DNA from: a virus
Lineage: Duplodnaviria; Heunggongvirae; Uroviricota; Caudoviricetes
Virus record (IMG/VR): IMGVR_UViG_3300037883_000041
Length of the DNA stretch: 64,000 nucleotides
Strand: one strand, 5' to 3'
Part shown: piece after piece, positions 36,001 through 42,000 of the stretch
Layout: each line of letters opens with the position of its first letter
Position numbering within the stretch: position 1 is the stretch's first letter
Made by a program: the position numbers

Positions 36001-39000
36001 GCCAGCAGCTCCGGCTCCGTGCCTTCATGAGGAGCTGGGTCGGCGAACCACGTGTAACAGTGACACGGGTCGGCCTGGAGTCCCTCTGCATCCAAGAGTT
36101 CGATCGTCGGACCCTTACGGAACAGCGTCGTCGCCACCATGACGACACCGTGCTGCTCCAACACACGGCGTACGTCATTGACAGCAGCTTGAAACTCTTC
36201 TTTCGTCTTTGCCATTTTCCTTCCTTTAGAGATCGTCAACAGCCAGCATCAAACGTGCGATATCGACACCCGAGCGCGGGACCCACTCATGCAGACGCGA
36301 ACCGCTTGCCGTACCCACAAAAACCTGCTCTGCGGTGAGACTGACGATGATGCGATAGCTGTCCATGTTCAATACTGCAAACACTTCGTTCGCGCGCAAA
36401 GCATCGCGCTTGAAAAGACCGCTACGGTTCATCTGCATCAGCTGATAGACGAAATCACCATCGTCCTGTGCTTTGATGTACGTCGGGCTTTTCTGCTTGC
36501 CGATGGTCTCGAGCAACGAATTCGGCATGAAGCGCTTACCGATAGTCGTACGCAAGATGTCCAGGATGTCGCTCGCATCCATCGTAGCGGGCTCGGTTTC
36601 CACGGCACGCAGATCCGGTGCTGCGCGAAGCGTCTCGACCTGATTGACGTTGTCGACCACCAGACTGAGGGCTGCGCGTTTCGGTTGCGGTTCGTCCAGA
36701 CTACGGATCTCAGCAATGATCCAGGCTGCGTGCTCAGCTTCGAGCAGCACGTACTGAATCGCCGGGAACTCGACGGCCAGATTGTGGTTGACTTCGACGC
36801 GGAGGTTCTCCATCGTGAAGAAGATGTCGTCACAGCCCGACTGACACGCCAGATCCACCACACCCTCACTGTGCCACTTCGTGATGCAGGCCGGAACACC
36901 AGCGATACCGATCTCACCGCCCCGCTTAGTGGTTTTGAACAGATACATCACCATCGGGATCTGCACTTCGATCCGACCACCTTCCATCTTCACTGCCGGA
37001 TGGTGCTGCGCGACCTTCTCGATGAACTTCGCGTAGTCCGACTCTTGATCAGCCAGCAGCTGTTGGCGGAGTTCTTCGTAGCTAATGAGCTTGGTCATGG
37101 GGAATCCTTGTTTTATTGAATTACGTTGTAAGTGACCGGCCCGTCGAGTAGTTTGACAGTGCCGTCTTCTTGTAACTGCACATGGGCACGCATGCCGAAG
37201 TTCATTGGGTGTGCCATTGCTACGGGTGAATCGTAAACGTGGTTGATTTCGCCGAGCTTGACCTCGACAAAACCATCTTTGTCCTTCTCGCCCTTCAGTT
37301 CACCTCGAACAATTCGTCGAAGTGAATTGCTCGAAGCGATGAACACTGTCTTGTGAGCCGCATCGACGCTCTCCCGCACTGAGGTGAAGATGGTGTGGAT
37401 CGTAGTCGGCGGTTCTGTGCCGTCCAGCAGTGCTTCGACTTCCACCGTGGGTTTATGCGGGAACGAGACCAGCACCACAGTGAAGAGACCTTTACCGCCA
37501 TACATCTTCTTCACGCCTTCGTGAACCTGGTTGAACTCGTCTTCGCTGCGACTCGCGTGGTAATTGTACGCGCTCAGTACGTACAACGCTTCGCGGAAGG
37601 CTAACATGGGCGAGACACCGCATGCGTTCTCATCCACCCAGTGAATCTTCCAACCCAGTTCCTTTTGCACACCGGTATATTTGTTGCCTTCTCGCGTAAC
37701 ATCAATCTTCACGATTGCTCCTTGTTTTCTGGTCACCCAATGAGTCGACGGCATAAAAAAGAGACCGGCCGAAACCGGTCTCTAAAACCCGCCGAAGCAG
37801 GTCCCCACGATCAACTTGTTAGAGCAGGGTGTCGATCCACGCCTTGAGCGCGGACTTCGAAAGTGCACCTGCTTTGTTGCCCAGCACTTCACCGTTCTTG
37901 TAGAAGTACAGGGCAGGAATGCCGCGTACGCCCAATGCAGCAGGCGTTTGTTGGTTGGCGTCGACGTCGACCTTAACGATCTGCAAGCGGCCGTCGTATT
38001 CCTTGGCTACTTCGTCGAGCACCGGGGCAATCATCTTGCACGGACCACACCAGCTGGCCCAGAAATCGACCAGAACCGGGAGTTCCGACTTCTTCACATC
38101 TGCGTCGAACGTCGCGTCCGTTGCGTGTTTGATATCGCTCATTACTTTACTTACGTGTGGTTTCAGGAATGCTCCAACGCCTCGTCCGTGAGTTGCACGT
38201 AGTAGTTGGGCAGATTCGATGCAGGGATCAAGTCCCACGTGACAAAGGTGATGAGCTTCGGGCCTTCAGCACCCGGAATCCTCACCGTACCGCGCGCCGC
38301 AAACTCATACAGATCCGGATTCGCCACGACGTCAACAAAGACATCCTTCAGTCGACCCGCTGGGTGTACGATGGCAGTGATTGCCTCGAAAGCCTTGGGT
38401 TCAACAAAGTCGGTTTGACCTTCACCGCAGTCGAGAATGCGTTCGAACTTCACATCCGAGAAGCTGCAACATACCATGTCTTCGTGGATCACCAGAAGGC
38501 GTTGCAGCATCCCTTCATAGGGCGTATGTTTGGAGAAACGGGGATTGCCCATCTCTCCACGCAGCACACCGCGCGAAGCGCGCACCTGGACTCGCTCCAT
38601 GTGTGGAGCATAGTCAGCTTTCTGGAAGAGCGCAGACCCCACACCCTCCGGTTCAAACTTTCGAATGACGGCCTTGAAGCTGCCGTCCTCGAAGCGATGA
38701 AGAATCTGCATCGCTCACGCTCCTTAAATTAGGGAACACCCCCGAAGAGATGTTCCCGTGTGCAACCAATTACAGCGAACGCGTACCTTCGCGATACTGC
38801 TTGTCGAACTCGTCTTCCGCGCGCGTTACTGCCGGATCGGCGACGAAGACGTAACCCGTGTGGGTCGGCCAGGCATGGCCCATTTCGAAACCGTTCCAGC
38901 GTTCGAAATCTTCGTGCTTGATACCGTACTTCTCGCAGATCGCGTTGATCGAATCGCCGTTTTCCAACACGTGACGAGCCGTGCCGTTTTCTTCGCCGAG

Positions 39001-42000
39001 CTTCACTGCGCGATGAAAGCCTGCTTCCGCATCGACGAGAGTTTCGTCCGACAGTTTCAGGTCACCAGTGACATTGATGTTGCCGTTCTTGACGTCGACG
39101 TTAGCGGTGTACGACCAGCCCGGTAGCTTACGCAGCACATTCAGAAGCAGCATGACGTGCGAACCGTTTGCACCACAGTAACCAGCGTAGTACAACGGCA
39201 CGTTGACGTCCCAACTCTTGACGACTTCCCAGAGCGCGTTGAACGCCGGGTCGTTCAGATCCACGTCCGTCGGATTGGGCATTTCCGGATAAGCTTCGCT
39301 GCGCTCGATCGGTTCACGCGGCACACCCGCATCTGGCGTATCGCTGAAGTGCCACACGACCGAGCCTTCCTTCACGTGCTGTGCCGTTTCCGGGTCGACT
39401 GCGATCGATTCAGCATTGCCCGGCAAGTTGCCCTGCTCGACGATCTCGACGACGCCTGCCTTGATCAGATCGCTGACCCAGGGAATCAGTGCCGCCAGAC
39501 GATCGGCCATTTCCTGCGTCACCAGGAACACCAATCCGCAATTCGTGTAGTCCGGACCTTGATCCAGAATGCTGCGCAGCAGGCTGCTGGTCACGCGAGC
39601 TTGGGCTTCAGCCGTGCGGGCATCGCCGACGATCTCCTGTGCCTTAGCGCGAGCACGTTCCGTGTCGTTGTTCAGCCCGTCGATCAACCACTGCGGCGTA
39701 TCGACCTTGACCATCAGATCCGGCTGCTCGGGCACATTGATGCGCGTGCCTTCAGGGATCTCGTTCACCTCGAACAGCCCCATGTTCAGACGGTAGAGCG
39801 TCGCGACAGTCGTGTTGAATTCGATCGCCAGTTCCGTCCACTTGTCGCCCTCGACCGACTCGATGAAGTGCTGAGCCATGACCATGTCGAGCGTAACTTC
39901 ACGACGCGGCTGTGGTTCGACCGAGCACGGTACGTCGAGGAACGAGTCGATCAGGATCTGCGTCCAGCCTTCGAACGTCAGGCCCGAGGCTTTCAGTTCC
40001 GTCGCCGTCTTCGGCTCGCAGGTGATCAGTTCGGCTTCCTTGCAACGCACCTTGAAACGCGTCGGGACCACAATCACGTTCACCACGCCCAGATGCACCT
40101 TGCCGACGTTGTTGCTGTCGTCACGGATCAGGCCGTACGGCACGAACTTGAAGAGCGGCTGAGCGGACCACGACTCCGGGATCTCGAGCGGATCGACGAT
40201 GACTTCGCCGTCCTTGAATTCGAGCTCTTCGCCTGCAACTTCACGCACCAGGTTCGTCGCGACTGTGTGCTTGAAGTTCAGAATGGATTCGCGCCTCGAC
40301 ACGTCCTCATCATCGACGTGACCACCTGTGCCGATCGAGAAGTTGCCAGCCAGGCGTTCTTCGCCGACTTTCTTCGTACGCTGGTACAGGAAGAGCGGGC
40401 TATTGGCCCAGTCGATATCGTCCGGCGTATCCGAGAAGATCACCGGCGTGTACGGCAGGATCTGACGGAAGCGCGGATCGAACTCCATCTTCTCGCGCTG
40501 ACCGGTCATCAGGTGCGAGACGGCTGCTTCGAGCCAGTGTTCGTACTGCGTCTTATCCAGACGGTTGATGCCGTGCTTGAGCGCCATACCCGGCAGCTCG
40601 TCGGTGAACTCCTTGTCGATGACAAGGATGTGTTGCGGATGCTTGATCTTTTTGGTCATGGGGTTCTCTTGTTTCACTGCACTAAGGGCACGAGTATACG
40701 ACTCGTGTGCGCCAGGTAGAGGATGTCGGCGACACTCCTCGACAATCGACTCCTGGAGCTTCTTCGTTTCTTGCCGGGACCGTACAATCTCTTCCTGTTC
40801 GTACGTGACGAAGTGGAAAGTAATGTCCTGACGGCTTGCGCACTGATGCACTTCACGCCGCGTCTCGATAAACTTGCTGCGATCGAAACGTGGGAAATAT
40901 GCGTCACCAACAAACTCTTGCTGAATCTCCGTGAGCAGGAGTTTGTGGGCGTACTTCATGGCTTCCGCGTACAGCATAGCGCCGCCAATGATAAACGCCT
41001 CTTCTTCGCCTCGATGCTCGCAGTAAGCAATTGCTGCCTCCAGCGAGGTCGAAGTAATGCAGCCCTTGAACTGCCGCGAAGCCTTGCTCGTCACGACGAT
41101 GTTCTCTCGTCCTGGCAGAGCAAAGCCAATGGACTCATGCGTCTTACGACCCATGATCACCGGCTTACCCAAGGTGACACGTTTGAAGAACGCGAGGTCC
41201 TCCGGAATCGACCAGGGTAGCTGGTTGTTAAATCCAATCACGCCATTGCTGTCGTGAGCGGCGATGATAACGAGCTTAATCATTGACTTATCCTAAACGC
41301 TATCCGTTCCCGTACACCGATTGCACCACTGAGGACAATAGCGTACCTACAAAGCTCACGGACATCACCGTGAAGGAGATGAACTCCACTTTGTATTGGC
41401 GCGGTGTCTCGCAGTGCTCGTATGGCCGCATTTCGCAACAACACCACACGAGCAACGAAACGATGAATACCGAAAAGAAAGGGAAAAAGATCATAAGGAC
41501 TTTGCGATCAGTAACCCCACTGTGGCAGCCAGCACTAGCATTCCGCCAGAGTAGAGCAAGCCTGCGTACCAAACCCAACGAGCGCGAATCACCCGTGCTT
41601 TAGCATGATTAAACCGACGCGTCTTTCGGAACTGAGCCTCGGTATGAAACGAGACCATCATGGACAAAAAGAAAAGCGTCGCTGCCAAACCACACGCTGT
41701 CTGACACTGAGTCCAAAGACTCATCTGTGCATAAGCTGAATCGGCTCCGTAAAAAAGACTACTGGTCTCCTTCCAGAGGTAACGAACGAGCGCAATGCTA
41801 CCGAAAGCTGCTGTGACAATGGCACCAATCACCATGAGAAAACTGGCGACGGTATCACTGGCCTCGTAAGGCTTGCCCTTCTCGAAGTCATCCGCGCTCA
41901 CGCCAAAGAAGCTGATCATGAACCACCCGATCAACAGCATGGCAAGACCCACGTAAACCATTGTCATCATGTCTTGCTCCGAACAAAATAAGAGGGGACC

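What the first reader, a model, noticed from the sequence alone, without database searches (positions are those of the whole stretch)
38770..41283. DHFR-NUDIX-LysM-X-LysM fusion protein
Seen: one uninterrupted 837-aa frame. It holds a full DHFR (about aa 1-162), a ~45-aa linker, a NUDIX-type phosphoesterase from MTKKI (ATG at 40659, possible internal start), a LysM-like unit (~39730-39870), a small conserved-looking domain and a second LysM-like unit (~38850-38980). Known: DHFR regenerates THF for ThyA, NUDIX enzymes hydrolyse nucleotide pyrophosphates, and LysM binds peptidoglycan/GlcNAc. I do not know of this architecture. Inference: it may be a scaffolded nucleotide-supply enzyme, or a recent read-through fusion of neighbouring genes.
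Basis: partly seen in the sequence, partly recalled or inferred. Interest (0 to 1): 0.72.

Follow-up and report, generated by a model that had tools for sequence, protein, structure and literature searches.

The report
Conserved phage DHFR–NUDIX–LysM fusion protein
A jumbo bacteriophage encodes one 837-residue protein joining a normal dihydrofolate reductase to an unusual NUDIX-fold enzyme and two LysM domains; the fusion is real and old in this phage group, probably serves thymidine-nucleotide supply, and the role of the LysM domains is unexplained.

Summary
Window 38770-41283 (-) is one open 837-aa frame in a jumbo phage related to Burkholderia phage FLC9.

Domains:
- DHFR, aa 4-162 (Pfam E 2e-55).
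- Linker of 46 aa.
- NUDIX-fold module, aa 209-450. It belongs to the TM1382/YmaB subfamily (phrog_8902) and gives no Pfam NUDIX hit.
- LysM1, aa 471-518.
- Undefined region of about 250 aa, containing a small conserved motif block.
- LysM2, aa 768-812.

The fusion is neither an artefact nor a recent read-through. Nine of 15 relatives, down to 46% identity and including all deep lineages, are fused. FLC9's two-gene state is a derived fission. The state changed at least three times. A ribosome-binding motif plus ATG at the domain boundary is conserved in fused and split genes alike, so a separate 70-kDa NUDIX-LysM product is likely made as well.

Stand-alone relatives of the NUDIX module sit in thyA-DHFR-X-tmk operons, next to thymidylate kinase, or among replication genes. 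FLC9 has dCTP deaminase, ThyA, DHFR and Tmk but no dUTPase. The best reading is a thymidylate-supply protein whose NUDIX module hydrolyses dUTP or other dNTPs. That substrate is inferred, not shown.

Why a cytoplasmic nucleotide enzyme carries LysM domains remains open. I rate this a new variant of known kinds, of moderate interest.

The parts
38770..41283 (-). Whole 837-aa ORF (94.2 kDa): DHFR, linker, NUDIX-fold module, LysM1, undefined region, LysM2, tail
40798..41274 (-). DHFR domain, aa 4-162. Ligand and catalytic motifs are conserved (PWSIPEDLAFFKR, GRKT, IGG).
   Evidence: Pfam PF00186 E 2.2e-55 over profile positions 2-158 of 159; phrog_316; invariant columns in A5
40660..40797 (-). 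46-aa linker, aa 163-208. It is the C-terminal tail of DHFR in split relatives. It is homologous to the linker of fused P0002 and about 34 nt longer than in FLC9.
   Evidence: no Pfam match
40657..40674 (-). Internal translation-initiation region AAACAAGAGAACCCC-ATG (Met209), conserved in fused and split relatives
39934..40659 (-). NUDIX-fold module X, aa 209-450, of the TM1382/YmaB type. It has a divergent box: GGHVDxxD, about 19 aa, then REVxxEE.
   Evidence: phrog_8902 E 2.9e-42; 3e57 profile E 2e-28; AF2 pLDDT 93.9; Foldseek; box alignment
39730..39873 (-). LysM1, aa 471-518, present in every in-group relative
   Evidence: Pfam LysM 17.9 bits alone; 13 of 14 relatives match; model pLDDT 80-90 with beta-alpha-alpha-beta; Foldseek LysM matches
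39283..39729 (-). Undefined helical and beta-alpha region, aa 519-667, conserved in part (LVT..M..RL..L.P...L...GVV.IV)
   Evidence: no match
39142..39282 (-). Small conserved block, aa 668-714 (MPNPT...WDVNVP...YAGYCGANGSHV). It is present in some relatives and absent in others.
   Evidence: no family or fold match
38848..38982 (-). LysM2, aa 768-812, a variable module that is absent in P0011-P0014
   Evidence: Pfam LysM 18.0 bits alone; topology in model at pLDDT 53-63
38732..38757 (-). 11-bp UUCG-tetraloop hairpin just after the stop codon, followed by the AAGGAG ribosome-binding site of the next gene
   Evidence: (dG -21.1 kcal/mol, z -2.2). The terminator scan did not call it.

Best explanation
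This is a genuine, evolutionarily conserved multidomain protein of an FLC9-like jumbo phage. An active-looking FolA-type DHFR is joined by a flexible linker to a TM1382/YmaB-type NUDIX-fold pyrophosphohydrolase, which carries LysM domains. Shown: the domains, the conservation of the fusion, its repeated fission and fusion, and a conserved internal ribosome-binding site plus ATG. Inferred from the internal start: the gene yields both the 94-kDa fusion and a 70-kDa NUDIX-LysM product. Inferred from gene context: the protein works in thymidylate supply. DHFR recycles the dihydrofolate made by the phage ThyA. The NUDIX module most likely cleaves a deoxynucleoside triphosphate to the monophosphate plus pyrophosphate. 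The favoured reaction is dUTP to dUMP, which fills the step between the phage dCTP deaminase and ThyA for which no dUTPase gene is found. The LysM domains are a conserved accessory of this NUDIX subfamily in large phages. Their ligand is unknown; a tethering or glycan-sensing role is a guess.
For: The ORF and domains are established.

Fusion conserved:
- 9 of 15 relatives at 46-65% identity, from independent contigs of about 310-327 kb, are fused.
- In the tree, all deep lineages are fused, and the window is sister to split FLC9 with fused P0002 next.
- Split relatives keep DHFR 14-17 nt upstream.

Internal start:
- AAACAAGGA(G)/AAACAAGAGA lies 5-9 nt before a conserved ATG in all fused and split loci.
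- Only 8% of internal in-frame ATGs in the window have an SD-like motif.
- The junction resembles true starts such as the gene at 36226-37098.

Context of the NUDIX module:
- Phage nickie has thyA-DHFR-X-tmk contiguous.
- Phage hairong has thyA-DHFR-(homing endonuclease)-X.
- PaBG has X 3 kb from dCTP deaminase.
- RQ1 and P0034 have X beside DNA polymerase and ligase genes.
- P0020 and P0022 have X near Tmk and ThyA.
- The window itself has ThyA at 27517-28611 and Tmk at 46644-47447.
- phrog_8902 also hits B. subtilis and T. maritima.
- B. subtilis YmaB lies in the nrd operon and has preliminary dNTP pyrophosphohydrolase activity (PMC5960316).

Pathway gap:
- FLC9 has DCD (113.8 bits), ThyA and DHFR.
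- It has no dUTPase above cut-off, no dimeric dUTPase and no ThyX.
- No trimeric dUTPase (PF00692) above cut-off was found in any of the five X-bearing cultured phage genomes searched.

The catalytic acidic residues of the NUDIX helix are invariant or nearly invariant across the family.
Against: - No enzymatic data exist for this module, and the substrate is inferred from context only.
- The NUDIX box is non-canonical. This clade has an extra residue (REVxxEE against RE[LIV]xEE), which could alter or abolish catalysis.
- Some dCTP deaminases are bifunctional, and the host has its own Dut, so the 'gap' need not be filled by the phage.
- The anticorrelation with dUTPase rests on five genomes from four lineages.
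- LysM domains have no obvious role in a cytoplasmic nucleotide enzyme.
- The gene sits beside a prohead-protease-like gene, so a virion or cell-wall role is not excluded.
- Use of the internal start is inferred from sequence conservation alone.
Confidence: 0.6

Rival explanations
1. Recent read-through fusion or assembly/sequencing artefact: two neighbouring genes (DHFR and NUDIX-LysM) joined by a trivial indel in this genome only.
For: The nearest relative, FLC9, has two genes with a TAG stop and a 17-nt spacer. In the window, both alternative frames hit stops right at the junction (LVQ*, CP*), so a single-base change in the linker would restore a split. Raw reads could not be inspected.
Against: The same fusion is present in 8 other proteins from independent samples and contigs at 46-65% identity. 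The window's linker is homologous to that of fused P0002 up to Met209. The tree places fused forms at all deep positions. The difference from FLC9 is about 34 nt of diverged sequence, not a single-base slip.
Confidence: 0.04
2. Virion-associated or cell-wall-directed protein: the LysM domains bind host peptidoglycan during entry or lysis, and the DHFR and NUDIX domains ride along as packaged enzymes. This would echo the old, disputed claim (recalled from memory) that T4 DHFR is a baseplate component.
For: There are two LysM domains. The gene lies next to a phiKZ-gp175-type S80 prohead-protease homologue in all relatives. Structural genes (tail-tube paralogues) are interleaved with ThyA in the window. 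X-LysM fusions recur in other large phages.
Against: There is no signal peptide or lytic domain; DHFR starts at residue 1. Stand-alone X genes sit in nucleotide and replication modules. LysM also occurs in a cytoplasmic protein: the K+-binding protein Kbp, known from memory, whose LysM-containing biosensor structures appear among the fold matches. No proteomic data are available.
Confidence: 0.12
3. The NUDIX module is a counter-defence or NAD/ADP-ribose enzyme that cleaves ADP-ribose or a nucleotide signal, working with the window's Macro and NADAR genes, and its link to DHFR is incidental.
For: A jumbo-phage survey assigns phage NUDIX domains mainly to ADP-ribose and NAD processing (PMC7824862). 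ADP-ribose pyrophosphatases appear among the fold matches.
Against: The best structural and sequence relative is TM1382/YmaB, not an ADPR-ase. Context is repeatedly thyA, DHFR, tmk, RNR or DNA polymerase, not Macro or NADAR. The DHFR linkage is conserved as fusion or adjacency in two unrelated phage groups.
Confidence: 0.1
4. The NUDIX module is a folate-pathway enzyme, a NudB-like dihydroneopterin-triphosphate pyrophosphohydrolase, making the protein a two-step folate module.
For: It is fused to DHFR. E. coli NudB structures are among the fold matches, at ranks 28 and 36 with E about 0.01.
Against: FLC9 and nickie encode no GTP cyclohydrolase I and no dihydropteroate synthase, so the phage has no pterin branch for it to serve. 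NudB is a far weaker match than TM1382. The family also associates with RNR, Tmk and DNA polymerase.
Confidence: 0.06

Closest known systems
Burkholderia phage FLC9 gp287 (DHFR, 190 aa) plus gp286 (633 aa), LC667451
   Same: Orthologous locus with 82% nucleotide and 73% protein identity. It has the same synteny (DUF8224, small ORFs, DHFR, X-LysM, S80 protease, thioredoxin) and the same domain content.
   Different: FLC9 has two genes separated by TAG and a 17-nt spacer. Both are annotated only as hypothetical proteins. gp286 ends in the EEPTL tail that the window protein lacks.
Thermotoga maritima TM1382 (PDB 3e57) and Bacillus subtilis YmaB: stand-alone NUDIX-fold proteins of about 210-240 aa
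   Same: Module X matches 3e57 by profile (E 2e-28, full length) and by fold (TM 0.84 on the target). It shares the GGH.D..D loop and the RE.xEE helix. The PHROG family also hits both control genomes.
   Different: Those proteins are single-domain, cellular, and not fused to DHFR or LysM. They have the canonical RE[LIV]xEE spacing, whereas the phage clade has REVxxEE. That the B. subtilis hit is YmaB itself is inferred, not checked by coordinates.
Bifunctional DHFR-thymidylate synthase of protozoa and plants (known from memory)
   Same: DHFR is covalently fused to another enzyme of the thymidylate cycle.
   Different: There the partner is ThyA, with DHFR-TS channelling. Here ThyA is a separate gene 10 kb away, and the partner is a NUDIX-fold enzyme with LysM domains.
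T4 dNTP-synthesising enzymes (gp56 dCTPase/dUTPase, Frd, Td; known from memory)
   Same: The proposed logic is the same: a phage dNTP pyrophosphatase supplies dUMP or dCMP to a ThyA-family enzyme, with DHFR recycling folate.
   Different: T4 gp56 is not a NUDIX-fold protein, the T4 enzymes are separate polypeptides, and none has LysM.
LysM domains (PF01476) of cell-wall enzymes, and of the cytoplasmic K+-binding protein Kbp/YgaU
   Same: They share the beta-alpha-alpha-beta fold and the sequence motif GD.....A......T...L...N.
   Different: Classical LysM proteins are secreted peptidoglycan or chitin binders attached to lytic enzymes. Here the LysM domains sit on an apparently cytoplasmic nucleotide enzyme.

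Membership tests
Dihydrofolate reductase (Pfam PF00186, FolA type) | Full-length match to the family model above the curated cut-off | tested here: met
   187.2 bits against a cut-off of 25, profile positions 2-158 of 159; phrog_316 E 5.8e-46
Dihydrofolate reductase (Pfam PF00186, FolA type) | Catalytic acid and NADPH/folate-binding motifs (E. coli D27, W22, F31, R44/T46, R57, G95-G96, Y100, T113; numbering recalled from memory) | tested here: met
   W24, D29, F33, K34, G45-R46-x-T48, R59, G100-G101, Y105 and T118 are invariant in alignment A5. The mapping to E. coli residues was done by inspection.
Trimethoprim-resistant Dfr variants (NCBIfam exception models) | Score above the model-specific cut-off | tested here: not met
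   Best score 125.6 bits against a cut-off of 350. This is an ordinary DHFR, not a named resistance allele.
TM1382/YmaB-type NUDIX-fold family (phrog_8902) | Full-length profile match | tested here: met
   phrog_8902 E 2.9e-42 over positions 2-235 of 238; family profile against 3e57 E 2e-28; 2751 representative relatives
TM1382/YmaB-type NUDIX-fold family (phrog_8902) | Family-invariant residues (R, Q, Y..Y.R..GE.RL..S.G.GGH.D ... RE..EE ... H ... E.W) | tested here: met
   All are present in P0001. There is one extra residue between RE and EE in this clade.
NUDIX superfamily | NUDIX alpha/beta/alpha sandwich fold | tested here: met
   AF2 model pLDDT 93.9. Foldseek hits at probability 1.0 include 3e57, 3qsj, 3dup, 2fkb, NudI, RppH and MutT2.
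NUDIX superfamily | Canonical 23-residue NUDIX box GX5EX7REUXEEXGU | tested here: not met
   The G-to-RE spacing is about 25 residues instead of 13. The helix reads REVAGEE (one extra residue) with no terminal GU. The acidic residues are retained.
NUDIX superfamily | Match to Pfam PF00293 above cut-off | tested here: not met
   P0001 gives no hit at E <= 1, and FLC9 gives no PF00293 hit. One family member, P0063, passes (23 bits against 21.1) in its X region, which bridges the families.
NUDIX superfamily | Mg/Mn-dependent hydrolysis of a nucleoside diphosphate-X substrate | not testable with these tools
   Only a literature statement of preliminary dNTP pyrophosphohydrolase activity for YmaB (PMC5960316)
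LysM (Pfam PF01476) | Sequence match above the curated cut-off | tested here: met
   The whole protein scores 26.2 bits against 20.9 with two stretches. Each unit alone scores 17.9 or 18.0 bits, below cut-off. 13 of 14 relatives match, best E 3.6e-13.
LysM (Pfam PF01476) | Beta-alpha-alpha-beta fold | tested here: met
   LysM1 is modelled at pLDDT 80-90 and LysM2 at 53-63. Foldseek matches LysM structures at rmsd 1.2-1.6 A, with TM up to 0.89 on the target.
LysM (Pfam PF01476) | Binding of GlcNAc-containing glycans | not testable with these tools
   -

The most novel reading that the evidence does not exclude
The LysM domains give the NUDIX module a GlcNAc-containing substrate. In this reading the enzyme hydrolyses UDP-GlcNAc or UDP-MurNAc-peptide (nucleoside diphosphate-X compounds that are very abundant in bacteria) to UMP. 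That would divert the host's cell-wall precursor pool into pyrimidine and thymidylate synthesis for a 320-kb genome, while also throttling wall synthesis. The fused DHFR would then tie this salvage directly to the ThyA cycle. Nothing tested here excludes it. The only support is the recurrent X-LysM pairing in several large-phage lineages and the absence of a phage RNR in FLC9.
Probability: 0.07. Interest if true: 0.8.

Novelty: new variant of a known kind. Interest (0 to 1): 0.45.

Why it matters
- **Function of an uncharacterised family.** It links a large NUDIX-fold family (TM1382/YmaB, about 2,750 representative clusters, no Pfam or NCBIfam model matched) to thymidylate metabolism through independent fusion and operon evidence. 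That gives a concrete, testable substrate hypothesis for YmaB-type proteins, including the one in the Bacillus nrd operon.
- **Fusion and fission.** The gene pair has toggled between fused and split at least three times while keeping an internal ribosome-binding site. This makes it a useful natural case for how such events are tolerated.
- **Open question.** LysM domains on an apparently cytoplasmic nucleotide enzyme are unexplained.
- **Limits.** None of this overturns current understanding. All the parts are known domain types, and the architecture already exists unremarked in databases.

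Tried and rejected
- **Complex prediction.** DHFR+linker against module X (alignments A5 and A6) scored 0.01 and returned no verdict. It is not evidence either way.
- **C-terminal half, aa 451-837.** The fold had mean pLDDT 53, and only the LysM units are interpretable.
- **Middle region.** Foldseek PDB found nothing but LysM. The ESM Atlas feature and structure search of aa 520-765 gave no match above TM 0.37 or score 0.75. Pfam on aa 520-760 and on the linker found nothing.
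- **NCBIfam.** Nothing was found for module X or for eight stand-alone relatives.
- **Other fusion partners.** Pfam on 20 longer X-family proteins found only LysM (3 proteins) and one weak NUDIX hit, with no other informative partner.
- **Whole genome.** None is held for the window, so the pathway inventory used FLC9 as a proxy.
- **Programmed frameshifting in FLC9.** I considered it as a way to make a fused product. The X frame is -1 relative to DHFR, but there is no canonical slippery heptamer at the overlap (by inspection), so I did not pursue it.
- **More distant phages.** L011, L013 and L019 have no DHFR upstream of X.
- **EEPTL tail.** A scan for other ORFs ending in this motif found none outside the family.
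- **Literature.** Searches for TM1382/COG4112 and for DHFR-NUDIX fusions found no description of this architecture.
- **Transcription signals.** No sigma-70-like promoter was found on the gene's own strand inside it.

Full report
**1. Observation**

Window 38770-41283 on the minus strand is one stop-free frame of 837 codons. The window is 53-59% G+C with almost all genes on the minus strand. It is about 82% identical at the DNA level to the 322-kb jumbo phage Burkholderia phage FLC9, host B. glumae. No whole genome is held for the window. The protein database records this exact protein on a contig of 162 kb.

**2. Domains**

- **DHFR.** Pfam places a full-length DHFR at aa 4-162 (E 2.2e-55). 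The residues that bind folate and NADPH are invariant among relatives. NCBIfam resistance-allele models score far below their cut-offs, so this is an ordinary FolA-type enzyme.
- **Module X, aa 209-450.** It gives no Pfam NUDIX hit but matches phrog_8902, a PHROG of unknown function, over its full length (E 2.9e-42).
  - An exhaustive HMMER search finds 2,751 representative clusters, most of them stand-alone proteins of 210-250 aa.
  - A profile of 52 members matches one solved structure end to end: 3e57, T. maritima TM1382, deposited as a putative Nudix hydrolase (E 2e-28). Canonical NUDIX chains match only at E about 0.7.
  - An AlphaFold model built on that alignment is confident (pLDDT 93.9).
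  - Foldseek returns 3e57 first (TM 0.84 on the target), then many characterised NUDIX hydrolases.
  - One family member crosses the Pfam NUDIX threshold.
  - The NUDIX box is not canonical. The family has GGH[VI]DxxD, then about 19 residues, then RE[LIV]xEE. The jumbo-phage clade has an extra residue, REVxxEE. The acidic residues are retained.
  - I therefore file X as a TM1382/YmaB-type NUDIX-fold protein, not as a canonical Pfam NUDIX member.
- **LysM units.**
  - Together they pass the Pfam cut-off. Singly each scores about 18 bits.
  - 13 of 14 relatives match, best E 3.6e-13.
  - LysM1 is modelled confidently as beta-alpha-alpha-beta.
  - The only consistent PDB fold matches of the C-terminal half are LysM domains at rmsd 1.2-1.6 A.
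- **Region between the LysM units.** It includes the conserved block MPNPT...WDVNVP...YAGYCGANGSHV at aa 668-714. It has no match in Pfam, the PDB or the ESM Atlas and is poorly modelled.

**3. Is the fusion real?**

In FLC9 the same locus is two genes. gp287 (DHFR, 190 aa) ends in TAG. A 17-nt spacer follows, and then gp286 (633 aa) begins. This looks at first like support for a read-through in the window.

The wider picture says otherwise. A search of 5.8 billion proteins returned 15 clear relatives, and nine carry DHFR on the same polypeptide. These include proteins at only 46-53% identity from independent contigs of 211-327 kb and four IMG/VR genomes.

A maximum-likelihood tree of the shared core shows the following:
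- The in-group is supported at 100/100.
- The deep lineages, P0007 and a six-member clade, are all fused.
- Split and fused forms are interleaved only within the window's own subclade. That subclade contains P0009 (split), a group of P0002 (fused) with the sister pair window (fused) and FLC9 (split), and P0004-6 (split).
- Any reconstruction needs at least three changes of state.

The window's linker aligns with that of fused P0002 up to the internal Met. FLC9's linker is about 34 nt shorter and out of frame. The FLC9 split is therefore a derived fission, and the window's fusion is inherited.

Split relatives keep DHFR 14-17 nt upstream. One relative, P0015, has no DHFR there at all.

**4. Internal start**

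At the DHFR/X boundary every locus, fused or split, has a purine-rich motif (AAACAAGGAG, AAACAAGGA, AAACAAAGGA or AAACAAGAGA) 5-9 nt before a conserved ATG.

In fused genes the motif is read as E/H-K-Q/N-G/E. Its conservation at nucleotide level across proteins only about 50% identical is notable. The exception is P0002, where it is degenerate (AAAAAGAAA).

Only 8% of internal in-frame ATGs in the window have any SD-like motif upstream, against 42% of crudely called gene starts. Genuine starts nearby look the same, for example aaaacaaggattccccATG at gene 36226-37098.

I infer that the fused gene also produces a 70.5-kDa X-LysM protein from Met209 alongside the 94.2-kDa fusion. This would explain why fission is tolerated so readily. 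It is an inference from sequence only.

**5. Function**

Gene context for module X is consistent across unrelated phages.
- **Phage nickie** (112 kb): nrdB ... thyA - DHFR - X - thymidylate kinase, contiguous.
- **Phage hairong**: the same order, with a GIY-YIG homing endonuclease inserted between DHFR and X.
- **PaBG**: X lies 3 kb from dCTP deaminase.
- **Staphylococcus phage RQ1 and a Pam3-like contig**: X abuts DNA polymerase and ligase genes.
- **Two further large-phage contigs**: X, or X-LysM, is within 1-3.5 kb of thymidylate kinase and a ThyA homologue.
- **The window**: ThyA is at 27517-28611, thymidylate kinase at 46644-47447 and thioredoxin at 37819-38238.
- **Cellular members**: the PHROG model also hits B. 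subtilis and T. maritima among 14 control genomes. B. subtilis YmaB is the last gene of the nrdI-nrdE-nrdF-ymaB operon. It is reported, as preliminary data, to have dNTP pyrophosphohydrolase activity (PMC5960316).

The complete FLC9 genome encodes dCTP deaminase (113.8 bits), ThyA, DHFR and Tmk. It has no trimeric or dimeric dUTPase above cut-off, no ThyX, no canonical NUDIX, no RNR large subunit and no pterin-branch folate enzymes. None of the five X-bearing cultured phage genomes searched has a trimeric dUTPase (PF00692) above cut-off.

The simplest pathway reading has four steps:
1. dCTP is converted to dUTP by dCTP deaminase.
2. dUTP is converted to dUMP by module X.
3. dUMP is converted to dTMP by ThyA, with DHFR recycling the folate cofactor.
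4. dTMP is converted to dTDP by Tmk.

The first, third and fourth steps rest on recognised families. The second is my inference.

**6. LysM**

X-LysM fusions recur outside this clade, in P0022, P0023 and P0026 at 37-43% identity in X. The pairing is therefore not accidental.

The protein has no signal peptide and no lytic domain. I cannot say what the LysM units bind. The options are:
- a tether or partner-binding role;
- sensing of cytoplasmic muropeptides or UDP-sugars;
- a virion or cell-wall role.

The third option is why I keep the virion/cell-wall rival at about 12%. The gene sits next to an S80 (phiKZ gp175-type) protease homologue in all relatives.

**7. Rivals**

- **Artefact or recent read-through.** Essentially excluded by conservation, although raw reads were not available.
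- **ADP-ribose or NAD counter-defence.** Suggested by a jumbo-phage survey (PMC7824862) and by the nearby Macro-like gene. It fits the gene context of X much less well.
- **NudB-like folate role.** Weakened by the absence of any phage pterin pathway.

**8. Novelty**

All parts are known domain types. The closest cultured relative has the same genes, annotated only as hypothetical proteins. Metagenomic copies carry automatic names such as 'dihydrofolate reductase' or 'predicted NUDIX family phosphoesterase/LysM repeat protein'. I found no paper describing the architecture.

I rate it a new variant of known kinds. The useful outcomes are:
- a substrate hypothesis for the uncharacterised TM1382/YmaB family;
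- a clean example of reversible gene fusion and fission around a retained internal start;
- an unexplained LysM association.

Interest 0.45.

Noticed in passing
window 14924-17107 (-): A 727-aa phage ORF ends in a YadA-like outer-membrane anchor domain (PF03895, E 3.9e-15). A trimeric-autotransporter anchor is unusual in a phage genome.
   Followed up: no
window 24697-27494 (-): A Thg1-like tRNA-His guanylyltransferase gene (25730-26539) is flanked by two tail-tube paralogues (Phage_TTP_14) and lies directly upstream of the ThyA-family gene. An earlier scan note (e1-5387229) reports the same.
   Followed up: partly
window 27517-28611 (-): The ThyA-family protein is 364 aa, and its Pfam match spans residues 2-323 for 255 profile positions. 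It therefore carries about 65 aa of insertions relative to ordinary thymidylate synthase. I did not examine whether it is a plain TS or a hydroxymethylase-type variant.
   Followed up: no
relatives' C-termini: L001 about 5263, L002 about 8643, L003 about 7953, L004 about 7878, L005 about 8034: Most relatives end in a conserved tail (EEPTL, DEPTL or EEPTM), whatever modules precede it. No other ORF in the window or in these loci ends this way. The window protein lacks the tail and ends ...QYREGTRSL. It may be a docking peptide, but its function is unknown.
   Followed up: partly
window 38712-38770; L001 4952-5245; L002 8661-8972; L003 7967-8266; L022 5109-6242; L005 8091-9227: The slot just downstream of the fusion gene is variable. 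The window has nothing there but a hairpin. FLC9, L002 and L003 have an ORF of about 100 aa. L022 and L005 have a 377-aa periplasmic-binding-protein-like gene (Peripla_BP_6/ANF_receptor).
   Followed up: no
FLC9 whole genome (LC667451): This 322-kb phage has dCTP deaminase, ThyA, DHFR, Tmk and thioredoxin, but no detectable RNR large subunit, dUTPase, ThyX or canonical NUDIX gene.
   Followed up: partly
L026 3519-4010 (Pseudomonas phage hairong): A GIY-YIG homing endonuclease gene is inserted exactly between DHFR and the X gene. These two genes are adjacent in the sister phage nickie.
   Followed up: no
window 38163-38711 (-), and L023 5772-6776: Short Peptidase_S80 (phiKZ gp175-type prohead protease) homologues of 148-182 aa lie next to the fusion gene in all relatives. 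The gene is duplicated in tandem in L023 and fused to DUF1653 (492 aa) in the contig carrying P0020.
   Followed up: no
window 38732-38757 (-): An 11-bp GC-rich hairpin with a UUCG tetraloop follows the stop codon directly (dG -21 kcal/mol). It has no U-tract, so it is more likely an RNA-stability or processing element than an intrinsic terminator.
   Followed up: partly
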